Below the pieces are notes generated by a model. The model saw nothing but the letters and a program-made list of their open reading frames with translations, did not search any database and was not told the origin of the DNA. Position numbers and translations under genes: made by a program. A stretch of 64,000 nucleotides of DNA from an uncultured Oscillospiraceae bacterium (GTDB lineage: Bacteria; Bacillota; Clostridia; Oscillospirales; Oscillospiraceae): positions 11,253 to 75,252 of the forward strand of contig CANQNS010000007.1 of assembly GCA_947625285.1 (NCBI GenBank), written 5' to 3'. This document shows positions 29,915 to 50,095 of the stretch, one piece after another. Positions within the stretch are counted from its first letter, which is position 1. Each line of letters begins with the position of its first letter.

Positions 29915-32482
29915 TTATTTTTGCCGGCGGCTTCGGAGGCCGGGCACGCTCAGCGCGGCCAGCAGCGCCAGCGCGGCGGCGGACAGGAGCCCGCCGGCCA
30001 GCAGACCGGGGGGCGTGTAGCGCATATCCAGCGTGTGGCTGCCGGGGGTAACGTCCAGGGCCGTCAGGCACCCCTGGACGACGGAGACATCCGCCTCCTC
30101 CCCGTCCAGAAGGATGCGCCAGCCCGGGTCGGCGGGGATGGTGAGCACCAGCAGCTCATCGCCCCGGCCGGTGGAGAACGAGCCGGTGAAGTGGTCGTCG
30201 GAGAGCCTGGTGAGCGGGCACGCCCCGTCCGCCATGGCGTCCCGGTAGACCGCCAGCGCGTCGGCATGCTCCGTGGCGAAGGCCGCGCCGTTCACGGTCA
30301 GGTCTGTGGCGGCCTGGATGCGGACCTCCACACGGTCCCCGGCGGCGTGCTCGCCCAGATACAGCGGGCCGTTGGACTGGCCGGTGGCGTAATAGGCGGT
30401 ATACGCGCCGTCCACGAACACCATCACCCCCGGCCAGTCCGCGATGTCCACGACTCCGTACAGAGGTCCGTCCGCACGGACGTTCACGGTGTAGATCAAA
30501 TTGCCGGAGCGGGCGTCCGCCGGCAGGGTGTAGCGCCCGCCGCCGTTGTCCGTAAGGCCCTCGGCCACAGGCTCGTCGGCCTGGGCGAAGGTGTAGATGT
30601 CCGCCTCCGCCTCCGGGGCGGCGGCGGCGTAGAGGGCCTGGGTGTAGGAGAAGGGGTCCTCCGCGCCGATGTCCTGGGCGAACCCCTGGTCCGCCGTCCA
30701 GCCCACAGGCAGGGCGTAGGGGTTTTCATAGACGCGGAAGCTGCCGGTGTCGGCTATGCGCTCGTAGGGCTTTTGGGTGTCCGACGCCGCCAGGTACTTC
30801 ACGCCCAGCAGGCTGTCCACGCCGGCGGTGACGCCGGAGCCGTACAGGGTGAAGATCTCCCGGTAGAAGGGCACGCCCAGCCGGCTGAGAAACTCCAGGT
30901 TCCGCAGTGGCAGCGTGGAGCCGTAATGGGACAGCCCGTCGTAGCCGAAGAGCATGCTCTCGTCCCGGTTCTGGTCGAAGAGCTCCGGGCTCTCCACCCG
31001 GACGAAGGCGTCCTTCGTGTCGATCAGGTCGATGGCCGCGGCCTTCTCCGCCGTGTACTGGGCCCACTTGGCCGGGTCAGAGGAAGTGGCGGTGAGGCTC
31101 GACAGGGACAGCTTGGCGTTGGCGCCCAGGTCGGCCATGTGCAGGACCAGCAGCCCCGCGCCCAGTCCGGCGGCCAGCCGCTTGCCCGCGCCGGGCCGGC
31201 CCAGGGCGTACAGCCCCCCGCACAGGGCGGCCGTCACGGCCACGGCCCACAGTCCGGCCTGCCAGCGCACCAGCTCCCGCCCCGGTCCCAGCAGGGCCAG
31301 CGCGGCCACCGCCGCCGAGGCGGCCAGAGGCCAGATCAACTGCCGGGGCCGGTAGTCCCCGGTCCCCAGGGACAGGGTCTTGTCCGCCGCGGCGATGACC
31401 ACGAAGCTGAAAAGGAAGCTGTAGCGGTAATTGTACCATTCCGGCACGTTGAAGCCGTGCCAGATCAGGTCCAGGGCCGACACCCAGAAGGACAGCGCGA
31501 GGGCCCCCAGCAGTCCCGCCGCAGCCAGCCGCCGCCTCCGGGGCACGCGTCCGTCGGCAAAGTACAGCGCGGCCAAAGCCGCCGTGACCGTGCCGCAGAA
31601 GATATTGGGCAGACCCGCGGGGGTAAGCTCGTCATAGCGGAAGGAGCCTACCAGCAGCTTAGCGAAAAGGGACGCGGGCGGGAATTTGCCCGTCAGATGC
31701 AGGTCGGAGGGGGAGAAACTGGCCTTGCCGCCCATGAGGACCGCCGCCGCCGGGACCAGCACCACCGCCGCCAGGGCCCCGGCCAGCAGACTTGCCAGCG
31801 CGAAGGTGAGCGCCCGCCGGACCCGCCGGCCTGCCGGGCCGGTGAGAAGGCTGAAAAGGAAAAACAGCACCGCGCCCAGGCACAGGATATAGCCCACATA
31901 GAAATTCAAGATCAGGGCCGCGCCCAGGCTCAGGGCGTACAGCCGCCAGCCCCGGCCCTCCGTCAGCCGGGCGACGCCCAGCGCGATGACGGGCAGCAGT
32001 ATCACGCAGTCCTGCCACTGGTAGCAGATGCTGTAGCAGACGAGAAAGGCCATGAAGCCGTAAGCCAGTCCCGGGCCCAGGACCCGCCAGCCCCAGCCGT
32101 GCCGCTCCCCGGCGTAAACGGCCATAGTCATGCTGGCAAGACCCACCCGCAGGATGTACAAAAGGCTCACCGCCGTCAGCAGGTTTTCCCGGGAAAACAG
32201 GCAGCACAGCAGATTCAGCGGGCTCATCAGGTAATAGGCGGTCACGCCCGTCAGATTCCCGCCCAGAGACAGGCCGGGCAGATAGAAAAGGCTGGCCTGG
32301 CCGGAGATAAGCTGCCGCAGAAAGCCCAGGAAGGACAGATATTGGCTGGACATATCCAGCACCCCGAAGCTGCGGCTGCCGAAGGGCGCGATGCCGCACA
32401 GAGCCAGCACCGCCGCCATCAGGGCCATGGGCAGCAGCAGGCTGACAAGCAGCACGGGGAGTTTTGACGTTGTTTTTTTCAT
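29915..32482 (-). CDS. YfhO family membrane protein (GT-C-type glycosyltransferase)
   Basis: 855 aa and polytopic. The N-terminus is typical of YfhO (CGIAPFGSRSFGVLDMSSQYLSFLGFLRQ), followed by a large C-terminal extracytoplasmic domain and a terminal TM segment. Confidence 0.88.
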   Translation of the reverse strand: MKKTTSKLPVLLVSLLLPMALMAAVLALCGIAPFGSRSFGVLDMSSQYLSFLGFLRQLISGQASLFYLPGLSLGGNLTGVTAYYLMSPLNLLCCLFSRENLLTAVSLLYILRVGLASMTMAVYAGERHGWGWRVLGPGLAYGFMAFLVCYSICYQWQDCVILLPVIALGVARLTEGRGWRLYALSLGAALILNFYVGYILCLGAVLFFLFSLLTGPAGRRVRRALTFALASLLAGALAAVVLVPAAAVLMGGKASFSPSDLHLTGKFPPASLFAKLLVGSFRYDELTPAGLPNIFCGTVTAALAALYFADGRVPRRRRLAAAGLLGALALSFWVSALDLIWHGFNVPEWYNYRYSFLFSFVVIAAADKTLSLGTGDYRPRQLIWPLAASAAVAALALLGPGRELVRWQAGLWAVAVTAALCGGLYALGRPGAGKRLAAGLGAGLLVLHMADLGANAKLSLSSLTATSSDPAKWAQYTAEKAAAIDLIDTKDAFVRVESPELFDQNRDESMLFGYDGLSHYGSTLPLRNLEFLSRLGVPFYREIFTLYGSGVTAGVDSLLGVKYLAASDTQKPYERIADTGSFRVYENPYALPVGWTADQGFAQDIGAEDPFSYTQALYAAAAPEAEADIYTFAQADEPVAEGLTDNGGGRYTLPADARSGNLIYTVNVRADGPLYGVVDIADWPGVMVFVDGAYTAYYATGQSNGPLYLGEHAAGDRVEVRIQAATDLTVNGAAFATEHADALAVYRDAMADGACPLTRLSDDHFTGSFSTGRGDELLVLTIPADPGWRILLDGEEADVSVVQGCLTALDVTPGSHTLDMRYTPPGLLAGGLLSAAALALLAALSVPGLRSRRQK

Positions 32483-32529
32483 ATGCTCTCTCCGATGCAG
32501 TGATCGCTGTGGATGTCAAGGCGTCTTTC

Positions 32530-32558
32530 ATTATAGCACGGGTCTTGGCCGGGGACAA
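32530..32558 (-). promoter_or_regulatory. Candidate extended -10 promoter of yfhO-like gene 1
   Basis: Minus strand shows TTGTCC (32553-32558), a 17-nt spacer, then gTGcTATAAT (-10 at 32530-32535). Confidence 0.45.
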
Positions 32559-32564
32559 GAAGGC

Positions 32565-32593
32565 TTGACAGGGCAATGGGCATTGAGTATAAT
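32565..32593 (+). promoter_or_regulatory. Consensus sigma-A promoter of the lipoprotein gene
   Basis: TTGACA (32565-32570), a 17-nt spacer, then TATAAT (32588-32593). SD GGAAGGAG precedes the ATG at 32658. Confidence 0.65.
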
Positions 32594-32657: not shown

Positions 32658-33104
32658 ATGAAAAAGAATGGGATCGTTGTATTGACGCTGGTCCTGGCCC
32701 TGGCGCTGTTCTGCGCCGCCTGCGGCGGCGGAGCCAAGGAGCCCGCCCCCACCGAGCAGCCGGCCGCGGCTACGGAGCTGCCCACCGTGACGAAGCCCCC
32801 CGAGGGCGAGAGCGGCGCGGACGACGTGCTGACCTCCGACGACAACGCGGCTCCTGCTTTCCGGGACCATGAGCTCGATCTTGCCAGCATGAGCGAGACG
32901 CAGCGCAAGGTGGAGGAGGAGCTGATCGGCGCGACGGTGGAGGACCTGTACGCCGCCATCGGCCAGCCCAAGAGCAGCGATTATGCCGCCAGCTGCCTGG
33001 TAGCGGACGGCGAGGACGGCATCCTGCACTACGACGGCTTCATCGTGTCCACCACCCGGTGGCCCAGCGGCGATGAGCGCGTCATGGGAACGGACGCCGA
33101 ATAA
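32658..33104 (+). CDS. Putative lipoprotein
   Basis: MKKNGIVVLTLVLALALFCAACGGG gives a signal peptide plus lipobox. Confidence 0.75.
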   Translation: MKKNGIVVLTLVLALALFCAACGGGAKEPAPTEQPAAATELPTVTKPPEGESGADDVLTSDDNAAPAFRDHELDLASMSETQRKVEEELIGATVEDLYAAIGQPKSSDYAASCLVADGEDGILHYDGFIVSTTRWPSGDERVMGTDAE

Positions 33105-33131: not shown

Positions 33132-33167
33132 CCGGCCCTGTCCAGTTGGACAGGGCCGGCATTTTTT
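33132..33167 (+). terminator. Intrinsic terminator after the lipoprotein gene
   Basis: 13-bp stem ccggccctgtcca/tggacagggccgg, followed by caTTTTTT. Confidence 0.8.
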
Positions 33168-33173: not shown

Positions 33174-34196
33174 TCATCGCCAGCGGCGGTCAAAAAACCA
33201 CAGCCGCAGCCGGTACAGCAGCGCCGCGCCCAGGTAGGCCCTGCGGCGCAGCAGGGCCAGGAAAAAGCGGATGCGCCCCGGCAGGGCCTCCGTGTCCAGC
33301 TCCCTGGCTAGACCCGTTTCGTCCAGGCCCGCGCCGATGTGCCTGGCGGCCTGCCGGACTCCGTGGCCGTACCGGCACTCCTGCAGCAAGGCCCGCAGGA
33401 GCTTGCTGGATATAAAGGCGTCGGCCTGGTCCGTCAGGTCCGGGGCCTGCCAGAGCAGATGGGCCGAAAGGTAGTCCCGGAGCAGCTTCAACTGCCGGAA
33501 CTCCTCCGGGTCATACTGCCGCAGGGCCGAGCCGGACCGCAGCCGGTAGACATACAGCTTCTCCGGGCACACGTAAAAAGACCCGGCGTTATAAAGACAC
33601 TCATACAGGGCGGCCACGTCCTCGTACAGCGCGATGGGACAGTCCCGCAGCCCGTGGGCCAGGATCAGCTCCCGCCGGACCACCTTGGACCACTGGTAGC
33701 CGGGGATCAGTTGGGTAAAAAAGGGCCTGCGCCGGTCCCAGATCATGTAGGGGTATATCTCCTTCTCCAGCCGGGCCTTGTCGTAATAGCCCGGCGCGGC
33801 CAAAAGAGGCTGGTCCGGCGAGCCGTCGCTGGTGACGAAGTCAAAGACCAGCATATCGGCCCCGCCGTTTTCCGTCAGGCAGCGGCGGATGGTCTCCAGC
33901 CAGTTTTCCTTTACCCAGTCGTCTCCGTCCACGAAGCAGACGTAGTCGCCCCGGGCCGCGTCCAGAGCGGCCTGCCTGGCCGCCGTCACCCCCCGGTTGG
34001 GCTGGTGGATGACCCGGACGCGGGCGTCCTTGGCGGCGTAGCCGTCGCAGAGCGCGCCGGAGCCGTCCGGGGAACCGTCGTCCACCAATATGAGCTCAAA
34101 GCCCCCAAAGGTCTGGGCCAGGATGCTGTCCACACAGGCGGGCAGGTATTCCTCCACTTTGTACACCGGCGTGACGATGGAAAATAGTGGCGTCAT
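33174..34196 (-). CDS. Family 2 glycosyltransferase (copy 1 of a tandem pair)
   Basis: MTPLFSIVTPVYKVEEYLPACVDSILAQTFGGFELILVDDGSPDGSG, with a DxD-like FVDGDDW. Confidence 0.9.
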   Translation of the reverse strand: MTPLFSIVTPVYKVEEYLPACVDSILAQTFGGFELILVDDGSPDGSGALCDGYAAKDARVRVIHQPNRGVTAARQAALDAARGDYVCFVDGDDWVKENWLETIRRCLTENGGADMLVFDFVTSDGSPDQPLLAAPGYYDKARLEKEIYPYMIWDRRRPFFTQLIPGYQWSKVVRRELILAHGLRDCPIALYEDVAALYECLYNAGSFYVCPEKLYVYRLRSGSALRQYDPEEFRQLKLLRDYLSAHLLWQAPDLTDQADAFISSKLLRALLQECRYGHGVRQAARHIGAGLDETGLARELDTEALPGRIRFFLALLRRRAYLGAALLYRLRLWFFDRRWR

Positions 34197-35135
34197 CTAT
34201 CGACCCTCCGTGCCGCCGGCGGCCGCCCGTTTTTGGAAAAGCGCGGCGGGCCGGTGGTAATAGAGCCACACCCTGGTCCGATGCACCAGCACCGCCGCCA
34301 GGTAGGCCCTGTGGCGCAGCAGGGCCAGAAACAGCCGTATCCGCAGGGGAAGCGCTTGCGGGCATATCTGCCGGGCCAGTCCCGTTTCGTCCAGCGCGGC
34401 GCCGATATTGCGGGCGGCCTGGCGCAGACTGTCCCGGTGGATCAATTGATTGGCTATGGCCCGCAGGAGCTTACTGGATATAAAGGCGTCGGCCTGGTCC
34501 GCTATGTCCGGGGCCTGCCGGAGCAGATGGGCCGAAAGATAGTCCCGGAGCAGCTTCAACTGCCGGAACTCCTCCGGGTCATACTGCCGCAGGGCCGAGC
34601 CGGACCGCAGCCGGTAGACATACAGCTTCTCCGGGCACACGTAAAAAGACCCGGCGTTATAAAGACACTCATACAGGGCGGCCACGTCCTCGTACAGCGC
34701 GATGGGACAGTCCCGCAGCCCGTGGGCCAGGATCAGCTCCCGCCGGACCACCTTGGACCACTGGTAGCCGGGGATCAGTTGGGTAAAAAAGGGCCTGCGC
34801 CGGTCCCAGATCATGTAGGGGTATATCTCCTTCTCCAGCCGGGCCTTGTCGTAATAGCCCGGCGCGGCCAAAAGAGGCTGGTCCGGCGAGCCGTCGCTGG
34901 TGACGAAGTCAAAGACCAGCATATCGGCCCCGCCGTTTTCCGTCAGGCAGCGGCGGATGGTCTCCAGCCAGTTTTCCTTTACCCAGTCGTCTCCGTCCAC
35001 GAAGCAGACGTAGTCGCCCCGGGCCGCGTCCAGAGCGGCCTGCCTGGCCGCCGTCACCCCCCGGTTGGGCTGGTGGATGACCCGGACGCGGGCGTCCTTG
35101 GCGGCGTAGCCGTCGCAGAGCGCGCCGGAGCCGTC
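33472..35135. repeat. Tandem direct duplication (period 1068 bp) with a 596-bp perfectly identical core
   Basis: 33472-34067 is identical to 34540-35135 by line-by-line comparison. Scattered mismatches occur only outside this core (for example 33471, 34068, 34074). Confidence 0.9.
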
Positions 35136-35264
35136 GGGGGAGCCGTCGTCCACCAGTATGAGCTCAAAGCCCCCAAAGGTCTGGGCCAGGATGCTGTCCA
35201 CGCAGGCGGGCAGATATTCCTCTACCTTGTACACCGGCGTGACGATGGAAAATAGTGGCGTCAT
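34197..35264 (-). CDS. Family 2 glycosyltransferase (copy 2 of a tandem pair)
   Basis: The first ~253 aa are identical to copy 1 and the C-terminal ~100 aa diverge. The ATG at 35264 overlaps the flippase stop (ATGA). The stop at 34197-34199 abuts the copy 1 ATG. Confidence 0.9.
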   Translation of the reverse strand: MTPLFSIVTPVYKVEEYLPACVDSILAQTFGGFELILVDDGSPDGSGALCDGYAAKDARVRVIHQPNRGVTAARQAALDAARGDYVCFVDGDDWVKENWLETIRRCLTENGGADMLVFDFVTSDGSPDQPLLAAPGYYDKARLEKEIYPYMIWDRRRPFFTQLIPGYQWSKVVRRELILAHGLRDCPIALYEDVAALYECLYNAGSFYVCPEKLYVYRLRSGSALRQYDPEEFRQLKLLRDYLSAHLLRQAPDIADQADAFISSKLLRAIANQLIHRDSLRQAARNIGAALDETGLARQICPQALPLRIRLFLALLRHRAYLAAVLVHRTRVWLYYHRPAALFQKRAAAGGTEGR

Positions 35265-36847
35265 GGCTTGCCTCCCTGGTCCTTTTTGCCGCCGGGGAGC
35301 AGGGACCTGGCGGTGCTCGCCAGAAAACGAAACTCCTCCGTCCGGCAAAAGCACACCGCGTAAAAGACGCTGGGCACGGCCACGCACACGCAGCCCCGGA
35401 GGATGAACCCTCCTATGCCGCCCAGGGCGATACGGGCGCAGAGCCCCCAGCAGGCCAGCCCCGCCGCCGCCGTCACCAGCTTATAGACCAGGTTCCGCAG
35501 ATAGTAGCCCCAGGGGGCCGTGTGCAGGACCCGCCGCCAGATCACCCAGGGGTCCACGGTCAGGAAGGTGCCTCCGTGGGCGATGATGGTGCTGACAACG
35601 CACCCGGCGATGCCGATCCGGGGCACCAGCCAGATGGAGAGGGCCAGGTTGAGCACGATGGTGACGATGGGCCGGACCCGGATATAGCGGAACACGCCGG
35701 TGACTTCCCGGAATACCATCAGATACATCCCCTGGCCGGCGATATAAAACTCGATGCCGATCAGCAGGGCCAGGGGCGTGCGAACGGTCACGCCGCCGGC
35801 GGTCCAGCTGGTCACCACGAAGCCCGGCCCGGCCCAGAGGGTGATGAACTCGTCCAGCAGCAGCGCAAGGCCGATGGAGCTGACGCCGAAGAGCCATACC
35901 GTGAAGAAGTTGACCGTCCGAAAGGCCAGCCGGGACCACGCCGGGTTCCCGGCGGTATGCAGGCTGCCCAGGGACGCCTGCATGGCGGAGACCAGCTTAT
36001 ACAGCAGATTGTTGATCTGGTTTTTCACCAGCAGATACTGGGAGTACAGCCCCACGCTCTGCAGGCCCGCCATGATGGACAGGACGATGACGTCGGAGCT
36101 GTTGACTACCGTGCCGCAGACCCGGTGGAGCAGCATCACGGAGCAGTCCTTGAAAAGCTCCTTCACCTCGCCCCGGCTGATATGGCCGTCCACCTTCTCC
36201 CGCAGATAGGGGTGCCGCCGGTCGCAGATACAGGCGTTGAGCAGGTTCTGAGCGACGGTGAAGCCGATCTGCACCAGCAGATAATAGATGAAGCTGTGGG
36301 TCAGCGTCAGGACCAGTATCTGCGCCGCGCTGTTGGCAAGGGCGATGAAATAGCCCGCCACGGTCAGCACATAGGTCTTTTGGGTGGCGTTGATGAAGGC
36401 GTTTTTGTAGGCGAAGAACCAGTAGGAGGCGACGGTGTTGAAAAGGTAGATGAGGAAGATGACCGTGCCGTTCAGCCCCAGCTCGGCCAGCCGGCCGTAG
36501 TCCTTCGCCAGCCGGGGCAGGAACGGGATCAGGCACAGCCCCATGGCCGCGATGACGCAGCCCACCACCAGATAGACCTGCCGGTACAGCTTCATGAGCA
36601 GCTGGATGCGCCGCCGATCGCCCTCCTCGATGGGCTTGTAGAGCTTATAGGCGATGGCGGTGTCGAAGCCCAGATTCGCCAGGTTCAGCACGGTCAGGAT
36701 GTTGGAGAACACCCCCTCCAGCCCCAGGTAATCCGTGCCCAGGGTGCGGATGAAGACCGTGCGGGTGACGAAGCTGAGCGCCATGAGCAGCAGCGAGGAC
36801 CCGATGCCGGTGAGCATATTGTAAAAGGAATTCTGGGTGCGGGTCAT
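35261..36847 (-). CDS. MOP-superfamily (Wzx-like) oligosaccharide/polysaccharide flippase
   Basis: 528 aa with about 12-14 TM segments. The N-terminus MTRTQNSFYNMLTGIGSSLLLMALSFVTRTVFIRTLGTDYLGLEGVFSNIL is typical of Wzx-type flippases. Confidence 0.85.
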   Translation of the reverse strand: MTRTQNSFYNMLTGIGSSLLLMALSFVTRTVFIRTLGTDYLGLEGVFSNILTVLNLANLGFDTAIAYKLYKPIEEGDRRRIQLLMKLYRQVYLVVGCVIAAMGLCLIPFLPRLAKDYGRLAELGLNGTVIFLIYLFNTVASYWFFAYKNAFINATQKTYVLTVAGYFIALANSAAQILVLTLTHSFIYYLLVQIGFTVAQNLLNACICDRRHPYLREKVDGHISRGEVKELFKDCSVMLLHRVCGTVVNSSDVIVLSIMAGLQSVGLYSQYLLVKNQINNLLYKLVSAMQASLGSLHTAGNPAWSRLAFRTVNFFTVWLFGVSSIGLALLLDEFITLWAGPGFVVTSWTAGGVTVRTPLALLIGIEFYIAGQGMYLMVFREVTGVFRYIRVRPIVTIVLNLALSIWLVPRIGIAGCVVSTIIAHGGTFLTVDPWVIWRRVLHTAPWGYYLRNLVYKLVTAAAGLACWGLCARIALGGIGGFILRGCVCVAVPSVFYAVCFCRTEEFRFLASTARSLLPGGKKDQGGKP

Positions 36848-36880: not shown

Positions 36881-37879
36881 TCAGCGGCGGGCCAGGCGTA
36901 CAAGGGCGAAAAAGAGCGTGGGGCTTGTCATGAGGAGCCGGCACAGCAGCCGGGTCTTTCGGTCCAGCTTGCCGGTGGAGCAGGCGGCGGCCCAGTGCTC
37001 CCGCAGCAGGGGGATAAAGTCCGCGCAGGTCCTGCGAAACGGTCCCAAAGACAGATCCGCCGCGTGAAAGGCCGTCACATAGCAGGCCCGGCAGACCTTG
37101 TAGGACCCGGCCGCCAGCACGGCGGGGGGCTCCCCCTCCGCCCGAAAGACCTCCATCATGTCCTTTACGGCGTCGATCAGGTCCAGATGCCGGGGCTCGA
37201 ACGGTTTGTGCTGGGTGCTGTCGGCCCGGATCCAGAAGTGATAGACCGCCTCCGGCGCGCACGCCAGCCGGCCGCAGTCCGCCACCTGCCGCCAGACGGA
37301 AAAGGAGTCCTCAAAAAGCCGGCCCTGGGGGAAGGGGTGCGCCAGCATATTCTCCCGGCGGGTCAGCTTCCCGCAGAGAAAGCCGCTGACGCCGCCGGCG
37401 GCCTCCAGACATACCGCCTCCAACGCCTGGTCCCGGTCCATCACCGGCGGCTCCGGCACGGGATAGAGCCGTTGGGAGACGCTGCCGTCCGCCCGGACTG
37501 TTTCCGCACAGATCCGGGCCACGGCCATGCCGGCTCCGGCCCGTTCCGCCGCATCGTACAGAGCGGCCAGGTAATGGGCGGAAACATAGTCGTCCGCGTC
37601 CACGAAGGCGATGAACGCGGCGTCGGACCCGGCGACGGCCCGGTTGCGGGCGGTGGCCTGGCCGGTGTTCTGCTGGTGGATCACCCGGACCCGGTCCGGG
37701 GCGGCGGCGGCGTACGCGTCGCAGACGGCGCCGCTGCCGTCGGTGGAGCCGTCGTCCACCAGGGTGATCACAAAATCTGAAAAGTCCTGGGCCAGCAGGC
37801 TGTCCACGCACCGTTTCAGATACGTCTCCACATTATATACCGCCACGATCACGTCGATGAGCGGTCTGCCGTCAGCCAT
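36881..37879 (-). CDS. Family 2 glycosyltransferase
   Basis: LIDVIVAVYNVETYLKRCVDSLLAQDFSDFVITLVDDGSTDGSG and FVDADDY. The ATG at 37879 overlaps the upstream gene's end by 8 nt. Confidence 0.88.
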   Translation of the reverse strand: MADGRPLIDVIVAVYNVETYLKRCVDSLLAQDFSDFVITLVDDGSTDGSGAVCDAYAAAAPDRVRVIHQQNTGQATARNRAVAGSDAAFIAFVDADDYVSAHYLAALYDAAERAGAGMAVARICAETVRADGSVSQRLYPVPEPPVMDRDQALEAVCLEAAGGVSGFLCGKLTRRENMLAHPFPQGRLFEDSFSVWRQVADCGRLACAPEAVYHFWIRADSTQHKPFEPRHLDLIDAVKDMMEVFRAEGEPPAVLAAGSYKVCRACYVTAFHAADLSLGPFRRTCADFIPLLREHWAAACSTGKLDRKTRLLCRLLMTSPTLFFALVRLARR

Positions 37880-41174: not shown

Positions 41175-41202
41175 ATTCCCACACCTCCTGATCGGCATTG
41201 GA

Positions 41203-44735: not shown

Positions 44736-44761
44736 AGGAGGTACCTGCTTTCACGCGTTTT

Positions 44762-46102
44762 TCAAAAGTAGTATTCGCCGGTGCGGAGGATGGCGGCCAG
44801 ATAGGCCGCGCCGCAGGCCAGGTGCAGCGCCAGCAGCGCCGCGCCGCCCCAGCGGGCCAGCCGGTACTGGCCGCGCCGGCCCCACAGGGAGGCGTACTGC
44901 CCCGCCGCCGCCGACCACAGCAGCCAGCAGCCCAGATACTGCCCCCAGGTGAAATTCCCGTGCCAGGAGCGTTCCCCTGTCTCGTGCAGGAACATGGCCC
45001 CCAGCAGCCCGGAAAGCGCGCACACCAGCCCCAGCCGGAAGCCGGCGTCCCGCCAGGCCCGCCGGGGCGCGGCGGCCAGCAGAAACAGGGGGAACGCGCA
45101 GGGCAGTGCCAGCATTTTCATGTCGTGGAAGATGGTCCGCAGAAAAGGGCCGAACCCGGTCCAGCCGTCCGCCAGGTAGTAGATGCTGATGCCGGCCCCG
45201 GGGCTGTGCGGCGTCACCGGCGCGGCCTCGGCGGCCAGGGCCGTCACCCCCAGGCTGAAGCCATTGCCGAAAAGGGACCCCACCTGCTGCAGCAGGACCC
45301 ATACGGCCGGCAGGAACGCTGCCGCCATCTTCACGCAGAAGGGCAGCAGCATCCCCCTGGTGCGGATCAGATCGGCCAGCAGAAACAGGAATATGGCCGG
45401 GCCGAATATCTGCAAAAACGAGGGCTTTGCGTAGGCCGACAACACCAGGCACAGCGGGTACAGGACAAGCTGGCTCCGGGTGAACACAGGCGTCTCGAAC
45501 TGGGCCCAGAAGCCGCCGGGAAAGGCGAAAGCGGGACTTTCCCCCTCCTCCGGGCACAGGGGCAGCCGGCGGGGGACGCCCCGGCGGCGGTCATAGATAT
45601 CCGCCGTCATGAACAGCACAGCCGCGGCGAAGGGCCGCACCATGATGCTGGTGGGGTTGTGCCAGGGGTTCACCGCGCCCCGGCCCACATAGTACGGGCC
45701 GCCCGGCAGGGTGAGGCTGCTCACCGTAAAGACGCACAGTACGACGGCGGCCAGCAACCAGCGGGGCGTCTTTTCCGGCGCCCGCCGGTCCAAGCATCCG
45801 TATACGACGAGATACGCCGCGGCATTGGCCCCCGCCGTCGCCAGCGCGGCGGCTCGCCAGATGTTCCTCACGCCGGCCGACGCCGTCAGCCACACGAAGA
45901 TGTGCCACAATATCTCTTTGCCCTGGCGGATGCCTTCCAGGATGATCGGCCAGGACAGCCCCATGGCCCAGGAAAGGTGGTCGATGTAATCACTGTCGCC
46001 GGAGCGGAAGTTGAAAACGACCCGATACGTCAGGCAAAACAGCGCACCCGCGCCCAGCAGGGCCCACGCGGCTTTCGTCAGGCGGGCGGAACGGTCCGTC
46101 AT
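44762..46102 (-). CDS. Uncharacterised polytopic membrane protein (possible GT-C/Wzy-like)
   Basis: 446 aa. The start ATG at 46102 overlaps the wecE-like stop (ATGA). The first loop reads SGDSDYIDH. The upstream 339 codons of the track ORF are an out-of-frame overlap with wecE. Confidence 0.65.
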   Translation of the reverse strand: MTDRSARLTKAAWALLGAGALFCLTYRVVFNFRSGDSDYIDHLSWAMGLSWPIILEGIRQGKEILWHIFVWLTASAGVRNIWRAAALATAGANAAAYLVVYGCLDRRAPEKTPRWLLAAVVLCVFTVSSLTLPGGPYYVGRGAVNPWHNPTSIMVRPFAAAVLFMTADIYDRRRGVPRRLPLCPEEGESPAFAFPGGFWAQFETPVFTRSQLVLYPLCLVLSAYAKPSFLQIFGPAIFLFLLADLIRTRGMLLPFCVKMAAAFLPAVWVLLQQVGSLFGNGFSLGVTALAAEAAPVTPHSPGAGISIYYLADGWTGFGPFLRTIFHDMKMLALPCAFPLFLLAAAPRRAWRDAGFRLGLVCALSGLLGAMFLHETGERSWHGNFTWGQYLGCWLLWSAAAGQYASLWGRRGQYRLARWGGAALLALHLACGAAYLAAILRTGEYYF

Positions 46103-47232
46103 GAGCGGGCCCTCGCGTAGAAGGCCGCCACGGCGTTGGCGGCGGTCTCCACCTCCGCGTCCGTCAGGCCGTAATACATGGGCAGCCGCAGCAGCCGCTG
46201 GCTCTCCCGGGTGGTATATTTGTCCTCCCCGTGGAACCGGCCGAAGCGCAGCCCCGCCGCGGCGGAGTGCAGCGGCACATAGTGGAACACGCTGCCCACC
46301 CCGTGGGCCTTCAGCCAGGCGATCAGCTCCGTGCGCTCGTCCAGGTCTCTGGCCTTGATGTAGAACATATGGGCGTTGTGGACGCAGCCGTCCGGGATAA
46401 CGGGCAGCTCGATCCGTCCCGCCTCCGCCAGCGGCGTCAGCATCTGCCGGTAGAGGTCCCAGCAGTGGAGCCGGGCGGCGTTGATCTGTTCCGCCATCTC
46501 CAGCTGGGCGTAGAGGTAAGCGGCGTTCAGCTCGCTGGGCAGGTAGCTGGAGCCCAGGTCCTCCCAGGTATACTTGTCCACCTGGCCCCGGAGGAACCGG
46601 GCCCGGTTGGTGCCCTTCTCCCGGATGACCTCGGCCCGGGGGTCGTCGGTCCGCAGCAGGATGGCCCCGCCCTCGCCCATGGAGTAATTCTTCGACTCGT
46701 GGAAGCTGTAACAGCCGTAATCCCCGATGGCCCCCAGGGCCTTGCCCTTGTACGAGGCCATGACGCCCTGGGCCGCGTCCTCCACCACCTTCAGGCCGTG
46801 GCGGCGGGCCATGGGCAAAATGGCGTCCATCTCGCAGGCCACCCCGGCGTAGTGCATGACGCAGATGACCTTCGTCTTTGGGGTGATGGCCTCCTCGATG
46901 CGGTTTTCGTCGATGTTCATGGTATCCGGCCGGATGTCCACGAACACCGGCACCGCCCCGGCCAGCACGAAGGCGTTGGCGGTGGAGGAGAAGGTGTACG
47001 AGGGCATGATGACCTCGTCCCCCGGCTCCAGGGCGCACAGCAGCGCGGCCATGTCCAGCGCGTGGGAGCCGCTGGTAGTCAGCAGGGCCCGGGCCGCGCC
47101 GGTGCGCTGGACCAGCCATTCATGGCACTTTTTCGTAAAGGCCCCGTCGCCGCATATCTTGTGGGAGTGGATGGCCTGCAGGACGTACTCGTCCTCCTTG
47201 CCGCAATAGGGTGGCACGTTGAAAGGGATCAT
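46099..47232 (-). CDS. wecE: dTDP-4-amino-4,6-dideoxygalactose transaminase (WecE/DegT family, PLP-dependent)
   Basis: Collinear with E. coli WecE as I recall it (MIPFNVPPY.., EVIMPSYTFSSTANAFVL, VMHYAGVACEMD, SFHESKNY with the PLP lysine, REKGTNRARFLRGQVDKYTW, NAHMFYIK, RLLRLPMYYGL). Confidence 0.88.
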   Translation of the reverse strand: MIPFNVPPYCGKEDEYVLQAIHSHKICGDGAFTKKCHEWLVQRTGAARALLTTSGSHALDMAALLCALEPGDEVIMPSYTFSSTANAFVLAGAVPVFVDIRPDTMNIDENRIEEAITPKTKVICVMHYAGVACEMDAILPMARRHGLKVVEDAAQGVMASYKGKALGAIGDYGCYSFHESKNYSMGEGGAILLRTDDPRAEVIREKGTNRARFLRGQVDKYTWEDLGSSYLPSELNAAYLYAQLEMAEQINAARLHCWDLYRQMLTPLAEAGRIELPVIPDGCVHNAHMFYIKARDLDERTELIAWLKAHGVGSVFHYVPLHSAAAGLRFGRFHGEDKYTTRESQRLLRLPMYYGLTDAEVETAANAVAAFYARARS

Positions 47233-47290: not shown

Positions 47291-50095
47291 TCAAAACCAG
47301 ATGATCCGGCCGTTTCGGATCAGGGACACGGTGGGGGCAATATAGATGAATCCCACCACCACCGCCGCTACGGCCAGGAAAGCCAGCTGCACCAGCCAGT
47401 CCAGGAGCCTGGGAATGGGGCGGGTCCGCCGCCGCAGCAGGGGCGCGGCCGCCACCCAGATGACCAGTAGGGCCAGGCTGGCCCGGCGCAGGACGGTGTT
47501 GATGTCCACAGGGCGCAGCGGCGACAGATAGGGCGCGGCGTCGGCCTCCGGCTGGCTGTCGGCGGGCGGCGGGACATAGGCCCCCTCCGGCGTGGGTCCC
47601 CGGAACAGGTACACCCTGTTCTCCCCGTCCTGCAGGGGCACCGATACCGTGGTCCCCAGAAGCGAGCTGGTGGACACATATTCGCCGTTGACGGTACAGG
47701 TCCACCCGCCGGCTAGGGGCAGGTAAAGATACCGTCCCTCCCCGTCGGCGGTGATGGTGATGGAAAGACCGTTGGAGAAGGTCTCCAGGGTCATGTCCGG
47801 GTCCAGATCGGCGTCGTCGTAAAAGGCGTCCAGGGCCCCTTTGTCCAAGGCCGTCAGAGACACCGCCTGCTCCGTCAGATCCATGGCGGAGGCGAAGGTG
47901 ACCTCTGACCGGCCCGCCGGGAACAGGCCCAGGCAGAGCAGATTGGAGTTGAAGGCGGCGGGATAGACCCGGTTGTCCAGGTCCATATAAGTGGGCACCG
48001 CCACAGCCCGCCCGTTGGCGGTGATGTTCATAGCCATGCCGTCTACGCTCATATACATGAACGCGGGCGCGTCCAGCCGGACGGACAGGCTGTAGGTCCG
48101 CATCCCGTCCCCGGAGACGGTCATTTTGGCCGCCGGGACCGCGGCCAGGGTCCCCTCCGAGCCGGTGAAGGTCCGATACAGCACGTTGAGCCGGCCCGCC
48201 AGATCGGTCTGGTCGAAATAGCTCTCCACGGAGGCGGGGTCGTACATCAGCCCGATCACGCCGGGATAGCGGCACGCGCCGATCTGTATGCCGGCCACCG
48301 TATCGCCGGGGACGTACAGGTCCGGGTCCAGGCCGCTCCCGGACAGGACCCGGTCCACCCCCAGGAGCATATCCGTGAACACCGTGCCGCCGGTGTCCAT
48401 GATGCGGTAGTAGTTGACGGTATAGCCAAGCTGCCGGTAGACCGCCAGCCGGTAGGCGGAGTTGCCGCTCAGGATGCTGGACAGCGCGCTGGTCCCGGCG
48501 ATGGCGGGATATCCCGCGCTGAGACTGGCGTCCAGGTTCTTGCTCCGGGAGAGGGGCGAGATATCCCGGACGGAGAAGTAGTCGTACAGCTGCTCCGACA
48601 CGTCGATGTACGCGGGGTCGTACTCATGGGTGGTGGTATGGCTGTCGTCGGGGGCTATGAGGCCGCAGCCGTTGACGCAGATCTGCAGGACCGCCAGGGC
48701 CGTCACGGTCCAGGCGGCGGTCCGGCGGCTGGCGCTGCGAAGGACCAGATAATACAGGCAGACCGCTCCGATCCCGGCCAGGACCAGCGCGGCGAAGTAA
48801 ACGAAATACTCCCTGCGGCCCATGGCGGTCAAAAAGCACGCGCCGTATTCCCGGAACGCACGCACCACGATGGGCTCCGTCAACACCAGCACCAACGCCG
48901 CCCCGCAGGCCGCGGCGGCGGCGGGCCGCCGGGGAACGGCCGGCAGCGTCTCCGCCAGGTCCCGGCTCTCCAACGCCGCCCCCGCAAAGCCCACGGCGGT
49001 GGCGCAGATCATATACCCATACCGCATGGGGAAGTAGTTATACTGGCCGAAATGCCAGGCGGTGTCGATGTTGGTGAAGATCATGGGCAGGGCGAACACC
49101 CCGGCCATATACAGGAAAAACCGCCGGCCCCGCCGGAACCGTTCCTGCTGCTCCGGGGTGCCGAGCCGTCTTGTGCGCGCCGCCAGCAGCATGGCCGCGA
49201 AGCACAGCCCCAGGCCCAGCAGCATCAGGAAGGTGTGGCGGGTGTTAGTCAGGTCCCAGGTGGTCATGCCGGTCTCGATGCCGGTCTCGATGTTCTGCTG
49301 GAACCGGGCCGAGCCGCTGATGGAGGCGGCGGTGACCTGCCAGTAGGTGAGGGTGGTGCCATAGGCAAAGGCGGTGCAGAGCCCCAGCGACAGCAGCCGC
49401 CCGCCCCGCTCCCGCCGGGGCAGGACCAGATAGCACCAGCCCAGAGAATACAGCACGATGAACGCCGTCACCATGTAGGTGTAGTACACGCTCCGATAGA
49501 GGAAGTACATATAGGCCAGCGCGTAAAGGCCCGGCTTGCCCTCTCGCAGCAGCCGGTCCAGACCCAGCAGCATCAGCGGGAACATCGCCACCACGCCCAG
49601 CCACGTGAAGTTGGAGTAATATTGCAGGGTGAACCCGCAGAAGGTGTACAGCAGGGCCAGCGTCGTCCGATAGGGCACGCTCAGCCCGGGGAAACGGACG
49701 CTGACGGCCCCGGCGGCGATCAGCGCGATGATCACCAGATGCGCCGCCAGATACAGGCTCAGCCCCTCCAGCACATGGGACCGATCCACCAGGAAGAACA
49801 CCCAGTTATAGGGGTAGCGCAGGTCCACCGCAGAGTAGTTATAGCTCTCGCCCAAGCCGGAGAACCAGTCCAGATCCTCCGCCACCAGCCCGTGAAAGGT
49901 GTCCCACATCCTGTAATAACCGGGCGTGTAAAACTGTGCCGCGTCCATGTAGGCCACATTGTCGGTCCCGAAAGGCCATATGCCCCGCAGGGCATATACC
50001 ACCGCCAGGATCGCCGCCGTGAGCCCCGCGGAGAGAAGGCACGTTACCAGCCCGGTCCATATCTGTTTTTTCCAACTGGGGGACGATAAGCTCAT
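47291..50095 (-). CDS. YfhO family membrane protein (GT-C-type glycosyltransferase), second copy
   Basis: 934 aa. The N-terminus RGIWPFGTDNVAYMDAAQFYTPGYYRMW is YfhO-like. The protein is polytopic with a large extracytoplasmic C-terminal domain and a terminal TM segment. Confidence 0.85.
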   Translation of the reverse strand: MSLSSPSWKKQIWTGLVTCLLSAGLTAAILAVVYALRGIWPFGTDNVAYMDAAQFYTPGYYRMWDTFHGLVAEDLDWFSGLGESYNYSAVDLRYPYNWVFFLVDRSHVLEGLSLYLAAHLVIIALIAAGAVSVRFPGLSVPYRTTLALLYTFCGFTLQYYSNFTWLGVVAMFPLMLLGLDRLLREGKPGLYALAYMYFLYRSVYYTYMVTAFIVLYSLGWCYLVLPRRERGGRLLSLGLCTAFAYGTTLTYWQVTAASISGSARFQQNIETGIETGMTTWDLTNTRHTFLMLLGLGLCFAAMLLAARTRRLGTPEQQERFRRGRRFFLYMAGVFALPMIFTNIDTAWHFGQYNYFPMRYGYMICATAVGFAGAALESRDLAETLPAVPRRPAAAAACGAALVLVLTEPIVVRAFREYGACFLTAMGRREYFVYFAALVLAGIGAVCLYYLVLRSASRRTAAWTVTALAVLQICVNGCGLIAPDDSHTTTHEYDPAYIDVSEQLYDYFSVRDISPLSRSKNLDASLSAGYPAIAGTSALSSILSGNSAYRLAVYRQLGYTVNYYRIMDTGGTVFTDMLLGVDRVLSGSGLDPDLYVPGDTVAGIQIGACRYPGVIGLMYDPASVESYFDQTDLAGRLNVLYRTFTGSEGTLAAVPAAKMTVSGDGMRTYSLSVRLDAPAFMYMSVDGMAMNITANGRAVAVPTYMDLDNRVYPAAFNSNLLCLGLFPAGRSEVTFASAMDLTEQAVSLTALDKGALDAFYDDADLDPDMTLETFSNGLSITITADGEGRYLYLPLAGGWTCTVNGEYVSTSSLLGTTVSVPLQDGENRVYLFRGPTPEGAYVPPPADSQPEADAAPYLSPLRPVDINTVLRRASLALLVIWVAAAPLLRRRTRPIPRLLDWLVQLAFLAVAAVVVGFIYIAPTVSLIRNGRIIWF

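What the first reader, a model, noticed from the sequence alone, without database searches (positions are those of the whole stretch)
29915..50095. 20-kb envelope-glycan locus built on a lipid-carrier (GtrB-like) plus multiple GT-C enzymes, with no priming phosphoglycosyltransferase or chain-length genes
The locus encodes two YfhO proteins, a Wzx-like flippase, three cytoplasmic GT2 enzymes and one GT4. It also encodes one GtrB/ArnC-like polyprenyl-phosphate sugar synthase and two further unclassified polytopic proteins with acidic first loops. A WecE aminotransferase, two ATP-grasp ligases and WbqC are present as well. It lacks the parts of a classical Wzy-dependent or ABC-dependent polysaccharide cluster. 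There is no WecA/WbaP/CpsE-type initiating transferase, no Wzz/CpsCD, no LCP ligase, and no NDP-sugar synthesis genes such as rmlAB. In Bacillus and Listeria, GtrB/CsbB-type enzymes work with YfhO-type GT-C enzymes to decorate teichoic acids outside the membrane. The abundance of GT-C-like proteins around one lipid-sugar synthase suggests a multi-acceptor extracytoplasmic decoration system rather than a polymer synthesis pathway.
Basis: partly seen in the sequence, partly recalled or inferred. Interest (0 to 1): 0.65.

Follow-up and report, generated by a model that had tools for sequence, protein, structure and literature searches.

The report
Lipid-monophosphate wall-glycan locus, gut Oscillospiraceae
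A 20-kb gene cluster from an uncultured rabbit-gut bacterium most likely builds a cell-wall sugar chain on a lipid-monophosphate carrier and finishes it outside the membrane with four membrane glycosyltransferases. This is a known strategy in lactic acid bacteria, here using two enzyme families that no database yet describes.

Summary
The gene inventory is confirmed. On the minus strand, 29915-50095 holds:
- two YfhO GT-C enzymes;
- a WecE-type aminotransferase;
- two ATP-grasp ligases and WbqC;
- one GtrB/ArnC-type polyprenyl-phosphate glycosyltransferase;
- one GT4 and three cytoplasmic GT2 (two are a recent tandem duplicate);
- a Wzx-type flippase;
- two orphan polytopic proteins.

Predicted structures of both orphans match only GT-C enzymes (STT3, PMT, ALG9, DPY19, AftA), not transporters. 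No priming phosphoglycosyltransferase, Wzz, LCP or rmlAB lies in the locus, in the 64-kb window, or in five related loci. The flanks are housekeeping genes.

The locus sits at a fixed chromosomal site in uncultured Oscillospiraceae and varies like a serotype locus. One variant carries rmlB next to wecE. Another carries phosphocholine genes and a choline-binding protein.

The best reading is not monosaccharide decoration. The GtrB-like enzyme primes undecaprenyl-monophosphate, cytoplasmic transferases extend the chain, Wzx flips it, and GT-C enzymes polymerise or attach it. This is the scheme shown for the Lactococcus pellicle polysaccharide. An aminoacylated 4-amino-6-deoxyhexose branch is inferred.

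It is a new variant of a known kind, of moderate interest. The 446-aa orphan belongs to a large family with no Pfam model.

The parts
47291..50095 (-). YfhO-family GT-C glycosyltransferase (934 aa), first gene of the operon-like array
   Evidence: PF09586 E=5.7e-46 over residues 25-584. About 10 TM helices, with D51 in the first loop. 24% identical to the other YfhO over its full length. Present or absent among related loci.
46099..47232 (-). WecE-type dTDP-4-keto-6-deoxyglucose 4-aminotransferase
   Evidence: NF008687 594.6 bits (cut-off 375) and TIGR02379 586.9 bits (cut-off 434.85). DegT_DnrJ_EryC1 E=5e-79. 74-90% identical in related loci. An RmlB equivalog lies next to it in L003.
44762..46102 (-). 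Orphan polytopic protein 'orf446', predicted GT-C fold; its start overlaps the wecE stop by 4 nt
   Evidence: No Pfam, NCBIfam or PDB sequence hit. AF2 model pLDDT 90, pTM 0.91. Foldseek top hits are DPY19, ALG9, AftA, AglB and PglB: probability 0.99 for DPY19, ALG9 and AftA, 0.75-0.97 for AglB and PglB; E 0.01-0.3, TM about 0.4. Invariant D38 and H42 in the first external loop. The family has 2665 50%-identity clusters.
43152..44735 (-). Orphan polytopic protein 'orf527', predicted GT-C fold with a C-terminal external alpha/beta domain
   Evidence: Only 16 homologues found and no family hit. AF2 model pLDDT 81. Foldseek: a 701-residue chain of translocon entry 9n9j at probability 1.0, Pmt4 at 0.95, Pmt1-Pmt2 at 0.75. 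W51, D53 and E54 nearly invariant in loop 1.
42419..43114 (-). WbqC-family protein (function unknown)
   Evidence: PF08889 E=2.2e-77. No PDB relative. Present in L033, absent from several variants.
41203..42390 (-). ATP-grasp ligase of the L-amino-acid-ligase type
   Evidence: LAL_C2, GARS_A and ATP-grasp_4 domains. BacD E=2.5e-13; uncharacterised 4dim E=3e-118.
40224..41198 (-). GtrB/ArnC-type polyprenyl-phosphate glycosyltransferase (GT2) with two C-terminal TM helices and a DDDGQ (DxDxQ) motif
   Evidence: Full-length matches to ArnC 9hwj (E=1.4e-34), GtrB 5ekp (E=2.9e-34) and DPMS 5mlz. NCBIfam ArnC 134 bits and PgfS 132 bits, both below equivalog cut-offs. TM helices at 240-258 and 274-292. 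The DxDxQ hallmark is described in PMC10821137.
39148..40227 (-). Sugar-transfer-associated ATP-grasp ligase; its start overlaps the GtrB-like stop by 4 nt
   Evidence: PF14397 E=6.7e-31. One to three copies in related loci.
37872..39125 (-). GT4 cytoplasmic glycosyltransferase
   Evidence: Glycos_transf_1 E=8e-20. No TM helix.
36881..37915 (-). GT2 cytoplasmic glycosyltransferase (probable true start 37879)
   Evidence: PF00535 E=2.8e-30. Orthologues are 332 aa.
35261..36847 (-). Wzx-type (MOP) lipid-linked glycan flippase, 528 aa
   Evidence: About 8 TM helices found by a crude scan. Homologues at 50-78% identity carry PF01943 or PF13440 and are named O-antigen/teichoic acid export protein. 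No Pfam hit for the window protein itself.
34197..35264 (-). GT2 cytoplasmic glycosyltransferase, copy b of the tandem duplicate (355 aa)
   Evidence: PF00535 E=9e-34. 34458-35264 is 98-100% identical to 33390-34196. Gene length confirmed in independent assemblies.
33174..34196 (-). GT2 cytoplasmic glycosyltransferase, copy a of the tandem duplicate (340 aa); the C-terminal ~70 aa have diverged
   Evidence: PF00535 E=6e-34..
32658..33104 (+). Conserved small lipoprotein-like protein (148 aa), transcribed divergently
   Evidence: Signal peptide with Cys. No family. Found at the same position in L033 (65%), L007 (54%) and L034 (49%). A 12/12 sigma-70 consensus lies at 32565-32593.
29915..32482 (-). 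YfhO-family GT-C glycosyltransferase (855 aa) with its own promoter-like site
   Evidence: PF09586 E=4.4e-152, covering 1-835 of the 835-position profile. Promoter-like site at 32558-32530 and bidirectional terminator-like hairpin at 29871-29900. 81% identical orthologue at the same place in L033.

Best explanation
This is a variable cell-envelope glycan locus of an uncultured rabbit-gut Oscillospiraceae bacterium. It probably assembles its product on undecaprenyl-monophosphate and completes it outside the membrane.

Proposed steps:
1. WecE converts dTDP-4-keto-6-deoxyglucose into a dTDP-4-amino-4,6-dideoxyhexose. The keto-sugar comes from RmlA/B encoded elsewhere.
2. The two ATP-grasp ligases, with WbqC, put an amino-acid or peptide acyl group on the sugar's amino group (inferred).
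3. The GtrB/ArnC-type GT2 transfers a sugar, possibly this one, onto undecaprenyl phosphate. This makes a monophosphate-linked primer.
4. The GT4 and three GT2 enzymes extend the primer on the cytoplasmic face.
5. The Wzx-type flippase moves the lipid-linked glycan outward.
6. The four GT-C-fold enzymes (two YfhO, orf446, orf527) polymerise it and/or transfer it to wall acceptors such as another wall polymer, lipoteichoic acid or a protein.

Shown here: gene identities, folds, absence of a primer, synteny and variability. Inferred: the order of steps, the identity of the first sugar, the acyl group, and the acceptors.
For: - Family assignments.
- The GtrB-like enzyme is the only lipid-carrier-directed enzyme and Wzx the only flippase candidate. 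They sit in a 13-gene array with gaps of at most 58 nt and several 4-nt overlaps.
- There is no PGT, Wzz or LCP in the locus or the window, nor in five related loci with Pfam labels.
- Wherever enough flank is seen, GtrB-like and Wzx are conserved while the GTs and GT-C cassettes vary.
- Both orphans match GT-C folds and carry conserved acidic residues in loop 1.
[quoted passage not shown] From my own knowledge, the Haloferax AglJ/AglG/I/E/AglB pathway works the same way on dolichol monophosphate.
- An RmlB equivalog (491 bits, cut-off 365) lies next to wecE in variant L003.
- A variant carries LicD, choline kinase, BCCT and a protein with PspC-type choline-binding repeats. This implies a wall polymer.
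- LAL, GtrB-like and ATPgrasp_ST are translationally coupled and conserved together.
- A 29%-identical orf446 homologue in another metagenome also sits beside a wecE homologue (64% identical) and a GtrA-family protein.
Against: - TagO/WecA-type primers are often unlinked to their glycan clusters in Gram-positive bacteria, so absence from the locus is not proof. The rest of the genome could not be searched.
- The characterised oligosaccharide primer WpsA works with a separate small membrane partner (WpsB/GacJ). No such gene is present here. GtrB-type enzymes with their own TM helices are so far mostly known as monosaccharide-donor synthases.
- The Foldseek E-values for the orphans are weak (0.009-0.03; TM about 0.4).
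- orf446 is replaced by an unrelated 754-aa membrane protein in the closest relative, and its distant homologues stand alone in rumen Lachnospiraceae. Its link to the amino sugar is therefore not universal.
- The donor specificity of the GtrB-like enzyme cannot be read from sequence.
Confidence: 0.5

Rival explanations
1. Two pathways share one locus. (i) A classical three-component monosaccharide decoration: GtrB-like makes a C55-P-(acylated amino-)sugar, and orf446 and/or the YfhO enzymes add it outside, as in the Arn pathway. (ii) A conventional Und-PP repeat unit is primed by a TagO/WecA/WbaP-type enzyme encoded elsewhere, built by GT4 and the GT2s, and flipped by Wzx. One orphan polytopic protein would act as the polymerase, and an unlinked LCP as the ligase.
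For: - Primers and LCP ligases are commonly unlinked in Firmicutes (own knowledge; the B. anthracis SCWP model in PMC8035078).
- wecE and orf446 are adjacent here and in a 29%-identical homologue's locus, which also has a GtrA-type flippase. This is typical of monosaccharide systems.
- Wzy polymerases are notoriously variable and lack Pfam hits.
- FtsW appears among the orf446 Foldseek hits at probability 0.80.
Against: - Only one flippase candidate is present for what would be two lipid-linked species.
- None of five variant loci carries a primer, Wzz or LCP.
- WaaL and RodA hits for orf446 have low probability (0.21-0.23) against 0.99 for true GT-C enzymes.
Confidence: 0.28
2. One reading: a pure extracytoplasmic decoration system. 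One lipid-sugar synthase feeds four GT-C enzymes that each add a single sugar to a different acceptor, and no oligosaccharide or polymer is made.
For: - There is one GtrB-like enzyme and four GT-C-like proteins.
- In Listeria, one GT-A serves both the WTA and LTA GT-C enzymes (PMC8035078).
Against: - This leaves the four cytoplasmic GTs in the same operon unexplained.
- Related loci carry up to eight cytoplasmic GT2/GT4 genes.
- A related locus carries phosphocholine-decoration genes that act on repeat units.
Confidence: 0.1
3. Protein glycosylation. The lipid-linked glycan is transferred by the STT3/PMT-like orf527 and/or the YfhO enzymes onto surface proteins (S-layer or sortase substrates), as in the S. 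mutans Pgf system or archaeal AglB.
For: - The best Foldseek hits of orf527 are protein glycosyltransferases: a translocon/OST chain at probability 1.0 and Pmt4 at 0.95.
- The only YfhO-family and GtrB-family NCBIfam models hit are PgfM1, PgfM2 and PgfS.
- A class B sortase gene is adjacent.
Against: - The Pgf scores are far below the equivalog cut-offs (234 vs 1400; 199 vs 1500; 132 vs 500).
- There is no PgfE and no obvious Ser/Thr-rich acceptor gene in the locus.
- orf527 is absent from most variants.
- The choline-binding-protein variant points to a wall polymer.
Confidence: 0.1

Closest known systems
Lactococcus lactis/cremoris pellicle polysaccharide (PSP) pathway: WpsA/WpsB, WpsC-F, WpsG, WpsH/I, WpsJ (PMC10821137)
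   Same: A GT2 polyprenyl-phosphate glycosyltransferase with DxDxQ acts as the only primer. Strain-variable cytoplasmic GTs, a Wzx-type flippase and several GT-C-fold enzymes finish the glycan outside. The locus is variable in the same way as a phage-receptor or serotype locus.
   Different: - The primer here carries its own two TM helices, and there is no WpsB/GacJ-like partner.
- No rhamnan (rml, rgp, ABC transporter) genes are adjacent.
- The GT-C enzymes belong to other families: two YfhO and two without a Pfam model.
- There is an extra WecE, ATP-grasp and WbqC amino-sugar branch.
- The organism is a high-GC Oscillospiraceae.
Three- and four-component transmembrane glycosylation systems (CsbB/GtcA/YfhO; GtlA/GtlB; GacI/J/K/L; Gtr) (PMC8035078)
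   Same: A GtrB-type GT-A, a flippase (Wzx-type, as in GacK) and YfhO-type GT-C enzymes. One GT-A can serve several GT-C enzymes.
   Different: Those systems add single sugars and contain no cytoplasmic elongating GTs. This locus has four such GTs, four GT-C-like proteins and an amino-sugar branch.
Arn pathway for lipid A L-Ara4N modification (ArnB, A, C, D, E/F, T)
   Same: The logic is the same: a DegT-family aminotransferase makes a 4-amino sugar, the sugar is N-acylated, an ArnC-type GT2 loads it on Und-P, it is flipped, and a GT-C transfers it.
   Different: - The aminotransferase is a WecE equivalog, not ArnB (175 bits against a cut-off of 631).
- The GT2 is not an ArnC equivalog (134 against 529).
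- Acylation would be by ATP-grasp ligases, not a formyltransferase.
- There is no ArnT/PMT_2 family member.
Haloferax volcanii Agl N-glycosylation (AglJ, AglG/I/E, AglB, AglD/AglS) (own knowledge)
   Same: An oligosaccharide is primed by a DPM/GtrB-like GT2 on a polyprenol monophosphate, extended by soluble GTs, and transferred by a GT-C (STT3-like).
   Different: That system is archaeal, uses a dolichol carrier and has a protein acceptor. AglJ similarity here is weak (E=2.4e-9, 37 bits against a cut-off of 325).
Streptococcus mutans Pgf protein O-glycosylation (PgfS, PgfM1, PgfE, PgfM2)
   Same: One GtrB-type GT2 plus two YfhO-family GT-C proteins in one locus.
   Different: Scores are far below the equivalog cut-offs. 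There is no PgfE epimerase and no adhesin acceptor gene, and there are many extra enzymes.

Membership tests
Multi-component transmembrane glycosylation system (GT-A + flippase + GT-C) | Membrane-associated GT2 that makes a polyprenyl-monophosphate sugar (GtrB/CsbB/ArnC type) | tested here: met
   Full-length alignment to ArnC and GtrB structures, E about 1e-34. DDDGQ motif and two C-terminal TM helices. Enzyme activity was not tested.
Multi-component transmembrane glycosylation system (GT-A + flippase + GT-C) | GtrA-type or Wzx-type flippase | tested here: met
   Homologues of the 528-aa protein at 50-78% identity carry PF01943 or PF13440. The window protein itself gives no Pfam hit at E<0.01. 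No GtrA-family gene is present.
Multi-component transmembrane glycosylation system (GT-A + flippase + GT-C) | Polytopic GT-C-fold transferase with an acidic residue in the first external loop | tested here: met
   Two PF09586 YfhO proteins. Two orphans have GT-C Foldseek hits at probability 0.95-1.0 and conserved D or DE in loop 1.
Multi-component transmembrane glycosylation system (GT-A + flippase + GT-C) | Transfer of sugar from C55-P-sugar to a wall polymer outside the cell | not testable with these tools
   Needs biochemistry or genetics.
Lactococcal PSP-type C55-monophosphate oligosaccharide pathway | WpsA-type synthase working with a small membrane activator (WpsB/GacJ) | tested here: not met
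   There is no room for a small membrane ORF: gaps in the array are at most 58 nt. The synthase has its own TM helices instead.
Lactococcal PSP-type C55-monophosphate oligosaccharide pathway | [quoted passage not shown] | tested here: met
   No PGT in five variants.
Lactococcal PSP-type C55-monophosphate oligosaccharide pathway | Elongation occurs on a monophosphate-linked intermediate | not testable with these tools
   Needs LC-MS of lipid intermediates, as in PMC10821137.
Lactococcal PSP-type C55-monophosphate oligosaccharide pathway | Adjacent rhamnan backbone genes (rmlABCD, rgp GTs, ABC exporter) | tested here: not met
   None in the 64-kb window.
Wzx/Wzy-dependent polysaccharide cluster | Initiating phosphoglycosyltransferase (WbaP/CpsE or WecA/TagO) | tested here: not met
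   No PF02397 or PF00953 in the window or in related loci. The rest of the genome was not searchable.
Wzx/Wzy-dependent polysaccharide cluster | Wzy polymerase and Wzz/CpsCD chain-length regulator | tested here: not met
   No Wzy_C, O-antigen-ligase or Wzz Pfam hits. WaaL Foldseek probability is 0.23 for orf446.
Arn (L-Ara4N) pathway | ArnB, ArnC and ArnT equivalogs | tested here: not met
   ArnB model 174.7 bits against a cut-off of 631. ArnC model 134.4 against 529. No PMT_2/ArnT family hit.
S. mutans Pgf system | PgfS, PgfM1 and PgfM2 equivalogs plus the PgfE epimerase | tested here: not met
   132 bits against 500; 233.9 against 1400; 199.2 against 1500. No epimerase gene in the locus.
YfhO family (PF09586) | Match above the Pfam gathering score | tested here: met
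   508.8 and 157.7 bits against a cut-off of 28.5.

The most novel reading that the evidence does not exclude
orf446 would found a large, uncatalogued GT-C glycosyltransferase family (at least 2,600 50%-identity clusters, no Pfam model). In this locus it would handle a peptide-acylated 4-amino-4,6-dideoxyhexose, or an oligosaccharide primed by it, carried on undecaprenyl monophosphate. The locus, with its two to five ATP-grasp ligases per variant, would then build an amide-rich 'glycopeptide-like' wall polymer. That would be a type of Gram-positive wall glycopolymer not yet described chemically.
Probability: 0.2. Interest if true: 0.65.

Novelty: new variant of a known kind. Interest (0 to 1): 0.4.

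Why it matters
Wall glycopolymers of the abundant but mostly uncultured gut Oscillospiraceae are essentially unknown. They are likely phage receptors, anchors for surface proteins and immune ligands.

This locus suggests three things:
- The monophosphate-primed, GT-C-completed assembly route, established only in lactococci, is used far outside the lactic acid bacteria.
- The route is combined here with aminoacylated 4-amino sugars.
- It varies between strains like a serotype locus at a fixed chromosomal site.

It also flags two unannotated membrane-protein families as probable GT-C glycosyltransferases. One is very large. Both are candidates for new CAZy or Pfam families.

Tried and rejected
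- Sequence-level links of the two orphans to known families: Pfam and NCBIfam; profile against PDB sequences; Pfam on 47 family members and on 36 distant members. All empty.
- hhalign of orf446 against orf527 and of each against a small YfhO alignment: no relationship. The four GT-C-like proteins therefore represent three unrelated sequence families.
- Transporter hypothesis for the orphans: rejected. MFS, POT and GPCR Foldseek hits have probability below 0.2 and TM below 0.2.
- Literature on WbqC and on ATP-grasp with viosamine: nothing useful. One malformed search.
- My recollection that WbqC occurs in O-antigen clusters with N-aminoacylated Qui4N (E. coli O121) is unverified.
- PDB relatives of WbqC and ATPgrasp_ST: none.
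- Context of distant orf446 homologues in rumen Lachnospiraceae: they stand alone between znu-type ABC transporter genes and enolase or ldh, which is uninformative.
- Rfam on the whole window: no RNA family.
- The 754-aa protein that replaces orf446 and orf527 in L033 is not a fusion of them.
- Searching the source genome for tagO, rmlAB or LCP was not possible, because only the window and fetched loci are readable.


Full report
**1. What is there**

The window is about 65% G+C, so raw ORF lists are crowded with spurious frames. Codon-position GC picks one clear set of genes.

Thirteen genes lie head-to-tail on the minus strand between 50095 and 33174. Gaps are at most 58 nt and several stop/start overlaps are 4 nt (wecE/orf446, GtrB-like/ATPgrasp_ST, Wzx/GT2_b). 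Next comes a small plus-strand gene (32658-33104), then a second YfhO gene (32482-29915) with its own promoter-like site. Terminator-like hairpins lie at 33132-33159 and 29871-29900.

Family assignments:
- YfhO/PF09586: E=4e-152 and E=6e-46.
- WecE: 594.6 bits against an equivalog cut-off of 375.
- WbqC: E=2e-77.
- An L-amino-acid-ligase-type ATP-grasp: BacD E=2.5e-13; uncharacterised 4dim E=3e-118.
- A 'sugar-transfer associated' ATP-grasp, PF14397.
- One GT4 and three soluble GT2.
- One GT2 that aligns end-to-end with ArnC and GtrB structures, E about 1e-34. It has two C-terminal TM helices and a DDDGQ motif. This is the DxDxQ hallmark of polyprenyl-phosphate glycosyltransferases (PMC10821137).
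- The 528-aa polytopic protein has no Pfam hit itself. It has 212 homologues, many carrying PF01943 Polysacc_synt and named O-antigen/teichoic-acid exporters. It is a Wzx-type MOP flippase.

**2. Boundaries and absences**

- Upstream of 50095 lie a split chromate transporter, a PfkB kinase, a methyltransferase, a DHH phosphoesterase and a copper ATPase.
- Downstream of 29915 lie a class B sortase (175 bits, cut-off 154), a DUF4179 protein, two CNNM/CorC proteins, a Ser/Thr kinase and HPr kinase.
- The rest of the window is housekeeping: dnaJ, dnaK, grpE, hrcA, rpoD, dnaG, hflX, dnaE, whiA.

There is no phosphoglycosyltransferase, Wzz/CpsCD, LCP, RmlA/B or ABC exporter of the polysaccharide type anywhere in the 64 kb.

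**3. The two orphan membrane proteins**

orf446 (44762-46102):
- It has 84 close homologues without any Pfam domain.
- An HMM of the family finds 2,665 50%-identity clusters at E<=1e-3 in 1.84 billion representatives.
- None of 36 sampled distant members has a Pfam hit.
- The AlphaFold model is confident: pLDDT 90, pTM 0.91.
- Its only high-probability Foldseek matches are GT-C enzymes: DPY19, ALG9 and AftA (probability 0.99), then AglB, PglB and Pmt1/2. E-values (0.01-0.3) and TM (about 0.4) are modest. Transporters score at probability below 0.2.
- D38 and H42 in the first external loop are invariant, as are WxNPT, KPxFxQ and ExGxR motifs.

orf527 (43152-44735):
- It has only 16 homologues.
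- The model has pLDDT 81.
- It matches a 701-residue chain of the OST-containing translocon entry 9n9j at probability 1.0. This chain is probably STT3A, which I did not verify. It also matches Pmt4 (0.95) and Pmt1-Pmt2 (0.75).
- It has a nearly invariant W-x-D-E in loop 1 and a C-terminal external alpha/beta domain.

Profile comparisons show that orf446, orf527 and YfhO are unrelated in sequence. The second refutation criterion, that the orphans are transporters, is also not met. The locus holds four GT-C-like proteins from three sequence families.

**4. Relatives and context**

The window comes from a rabbit-gut metagenome. The orf446 family scan of GTDB genomes returns uncultured Oscillospiraceae MAGs from rabbit, deer and other guts, plus 26-28% identical proteins in rumen Lachnospiraceae.

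In the Oscillospiraceae the locus sits at the same chromosomal site (PfkB, ChrA, ChrA, then the locus) but its content varies:
- Conserved: wecE, one or two LAL/Ddl-like ATP-grasps, the GtrB-like gene, ATPgrasp_ST and Wzx.
- Variable: the YfhO genes, orf527, WbqC, GT4, and the number of GT2 genes (two to eight).
- In the closest relative (L033; Wzx 83-84% identical) orf446 and orf527 are replaced by an unrelated 754-aa polytopic protein. Only the first seven codons (MTDRSAR) are shared, which marks a recombination junction.
- In L003 an RmlB equivalog (491 bits, cut-off 365) precedes wecE. This fixes the substrate as dTDP-4-keto-6-deoxyglucose.
- L035 carries five ATP-grasps, an SbnB/alanine-dehydrogenase-like enzyme, LicD, a choline kinase/nucleotidyltransferase fusion, a BCCT transporter, and a YkuD protein with PspC-type choline-binding repeats. 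These are the signature of a phosphocholine-bearing wall polymer that anchors surface proteins.
- None of the five loci seen with Pfam labels contains a primer, Wzz or LCP.
- A 29%-identical orf446 homologue from another metagenome again lies next to a wecE homologue (64% identical), with a GtrA-family protein and an acyltransferase-3. Other distant homologues stand alone.

Metatranscriptome contigs at 95-99% identity cover parts of the locus. This is weak evidence of expression in related strains.

**5. Mechanism**

The locus has a single lipid-carrier enzyme (GtrB-type), a single flippase (Wzx-type), four soluble GTs in the same operon, several GT-C enzymes, and no primer in any variant. The most economical pathway is the one demonstrated for the Lactococcus pellicle polysaccharide. 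There, GlcNAc-P-C55 made by WpsA/B is extended by strain-specific cytoplasmic GTs on the monophosphate carrier, flipped by the Wzx-type WpsG, and polymerised and attached to rhamnan by GT-C-fold enzymes (PMC10821137). From my own knowledge, the Haloferax Agl pathway uses the same logic on dolichol monophosphate.

I therefore propose the following, at confidence 0.5:
1. A GtrB-type enzyme primes undecaprenyl monophosphate.
2. GT4 and the GT2s extend the chain in the cytoplasm.
3. Wzx flips the product.
4. YfhO_A, YfhO_B, orf446 and orf527 polymerise or transfer it.

The amino-sugar branch (WecE, two ATP-grasps, WbqC) should yield a 4-amino-4,6-dideoxyhexose whose amine is acylated by an amino acid or dipeptide. 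ATP-grasp chemistry activates a carboxylate for attack by an amine. The translational coupling of LAL, GtrB-like and ATPgrasp_ST, and their joint conservation, suggest this sugar may be the one loaded on the carrier. That is inference only.

Rivals:
- A mixed locus, with an Arn-like monosaccharide decoration plus a conventional Und-PP unit primed elsewhere (0.28).
- Protein glycosylation (0.10).

What cannot be decided here: the phosphate number of the intermediates, the donor of the GtrB-like enzyme, the acyl group and the acceptors.

**6. Comparison and novelty**

The system works like the known multi-component transmembrane glycosylation systems (PMC8035078), and most like the lactococcal PSP pathway.

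It is not a member of the Arn, Pgf or Wps families in the strict sense. Equivalog scores are far below cut-off, there is no WpsB/GacJ partner, and there are no adjacent rhamnan genes.

New elements:
- The taxon.
- Four GT-C-like enzymes, two from families without any database model.
- The coupling to an ATP-grasp/WbqC amino-sugar branch.

I rate it a new variant of a known kind, with interest 0.4. It is useful for annotating a large unannotated family and for gut-Clostridia wall biology, but it would not surprise a specialist in principle.

**7. Other observations**

- The two GT2 genes at 33174-35264 are a 1068-bp tandem duplication. It contains 596 nt without a mismatch, while the 3' ends (C-terminal ~70 residues) have diverged to about 70% identity. 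It is present in an independent assembly.
- A low-GC island at 11085-13269 looks like a restriction-modification pair.
- A low-GC island at 57794-59142 holds a DUF6056 polytopic protein gene split in two frames near a C8 tract.

Noticed in passing
window 33174-35264 (repeat 33390-34196 vs 34458-35264): There is a 1068-bp tandem duplication of a GT2 gene. The N-terminal ~270 codons are 98-100% identical (596 nt with no mismatch), but the C-terminal ~70 codons are only about 70% identical. This suggests recent duplication or gene conversion with divergent acceptor-binding ends. Relatives carry arrays of three to four such GT2 paralogues.
   Followed up: yes
window 11085-13269 (- strand): A low-GC (~50%) island lies between hflX and dnaE. 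It holds a 512-aa protein with an NPPW motif and a weak MmeI-methyltransferase-domain hit, plus a 218-aa protein with no family. It is probably a horizontally acquired restriction-modification pair.
   Followed up: partly
window 57794-59142 (- strand): A DUF6056 polytopic membrane protein gene (DDF motif in the first loop) is split into two overlapping ORFs (profile positions 3-158 and 161-439). The split is close to a run of eight C at about 58622-58629, in a low-GC island. It could be a frameshifted pseudogene, phase variation or a sequencing error. The same-sample contigs show C8. Another sample's contigs break at the tract, and a related strain lacks the island.
   Followed up: partly
L033 1398-3662 (GCA_947628805.1) vs window 43152-46102: In the closest relative the two orphan GT-C-like genes are replaced by an unrelated 754-aa polytopic protein with a faint C-terminal choline-binding-repeat hit. 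Only the first seven codons (MTDRSAR) are shared, which marks a cassette-exchange breakpoint at the gene start.
   Followed up: partly
L035 (JGI 3300035512 contig), whole locus: This variant of the locus has five ATP-grasp genes, an SbnB/alanine-dehydrogenase-like gene, LicD, a choline kinase/nucleotidyltransferase fusion, a BCCT transporter and a YkuD protein with PspC-type choline-binding repeats. These indicate a phosphocholine-decorated wall polymer in a gut Oscillospiraceae.
   Followed up: partly
window 32658-33104 (+) and promoter-like site 32565-32593: A small lipoprotein-like protein with no family is conserved at the same position in related loci (49-65% identity). It is preceded by a perfect TTGACA-17-TATAAT consensus. 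Its role in the locus is unknown.
   Followed up: partly
window 24007-26594 (- strand): Two tandem CNNM/CBS/CorC_HlyC paralogues (putative Mg/Co efflux proteins) whose called ORFs overlap by about 160 nt. The start of the downstream gene (24007-25437) is probably miscalled.
   Followed up: no
L034 14802-16611 (- strand): A related locus ends with a second GtrB-type GT2 that is closer to PgfS (240 bits) and paired with a YdjC-family deacetylase-like gene. This suggests an additional lipid-linked monosaccharide branch in some variants.
   Followed up: no
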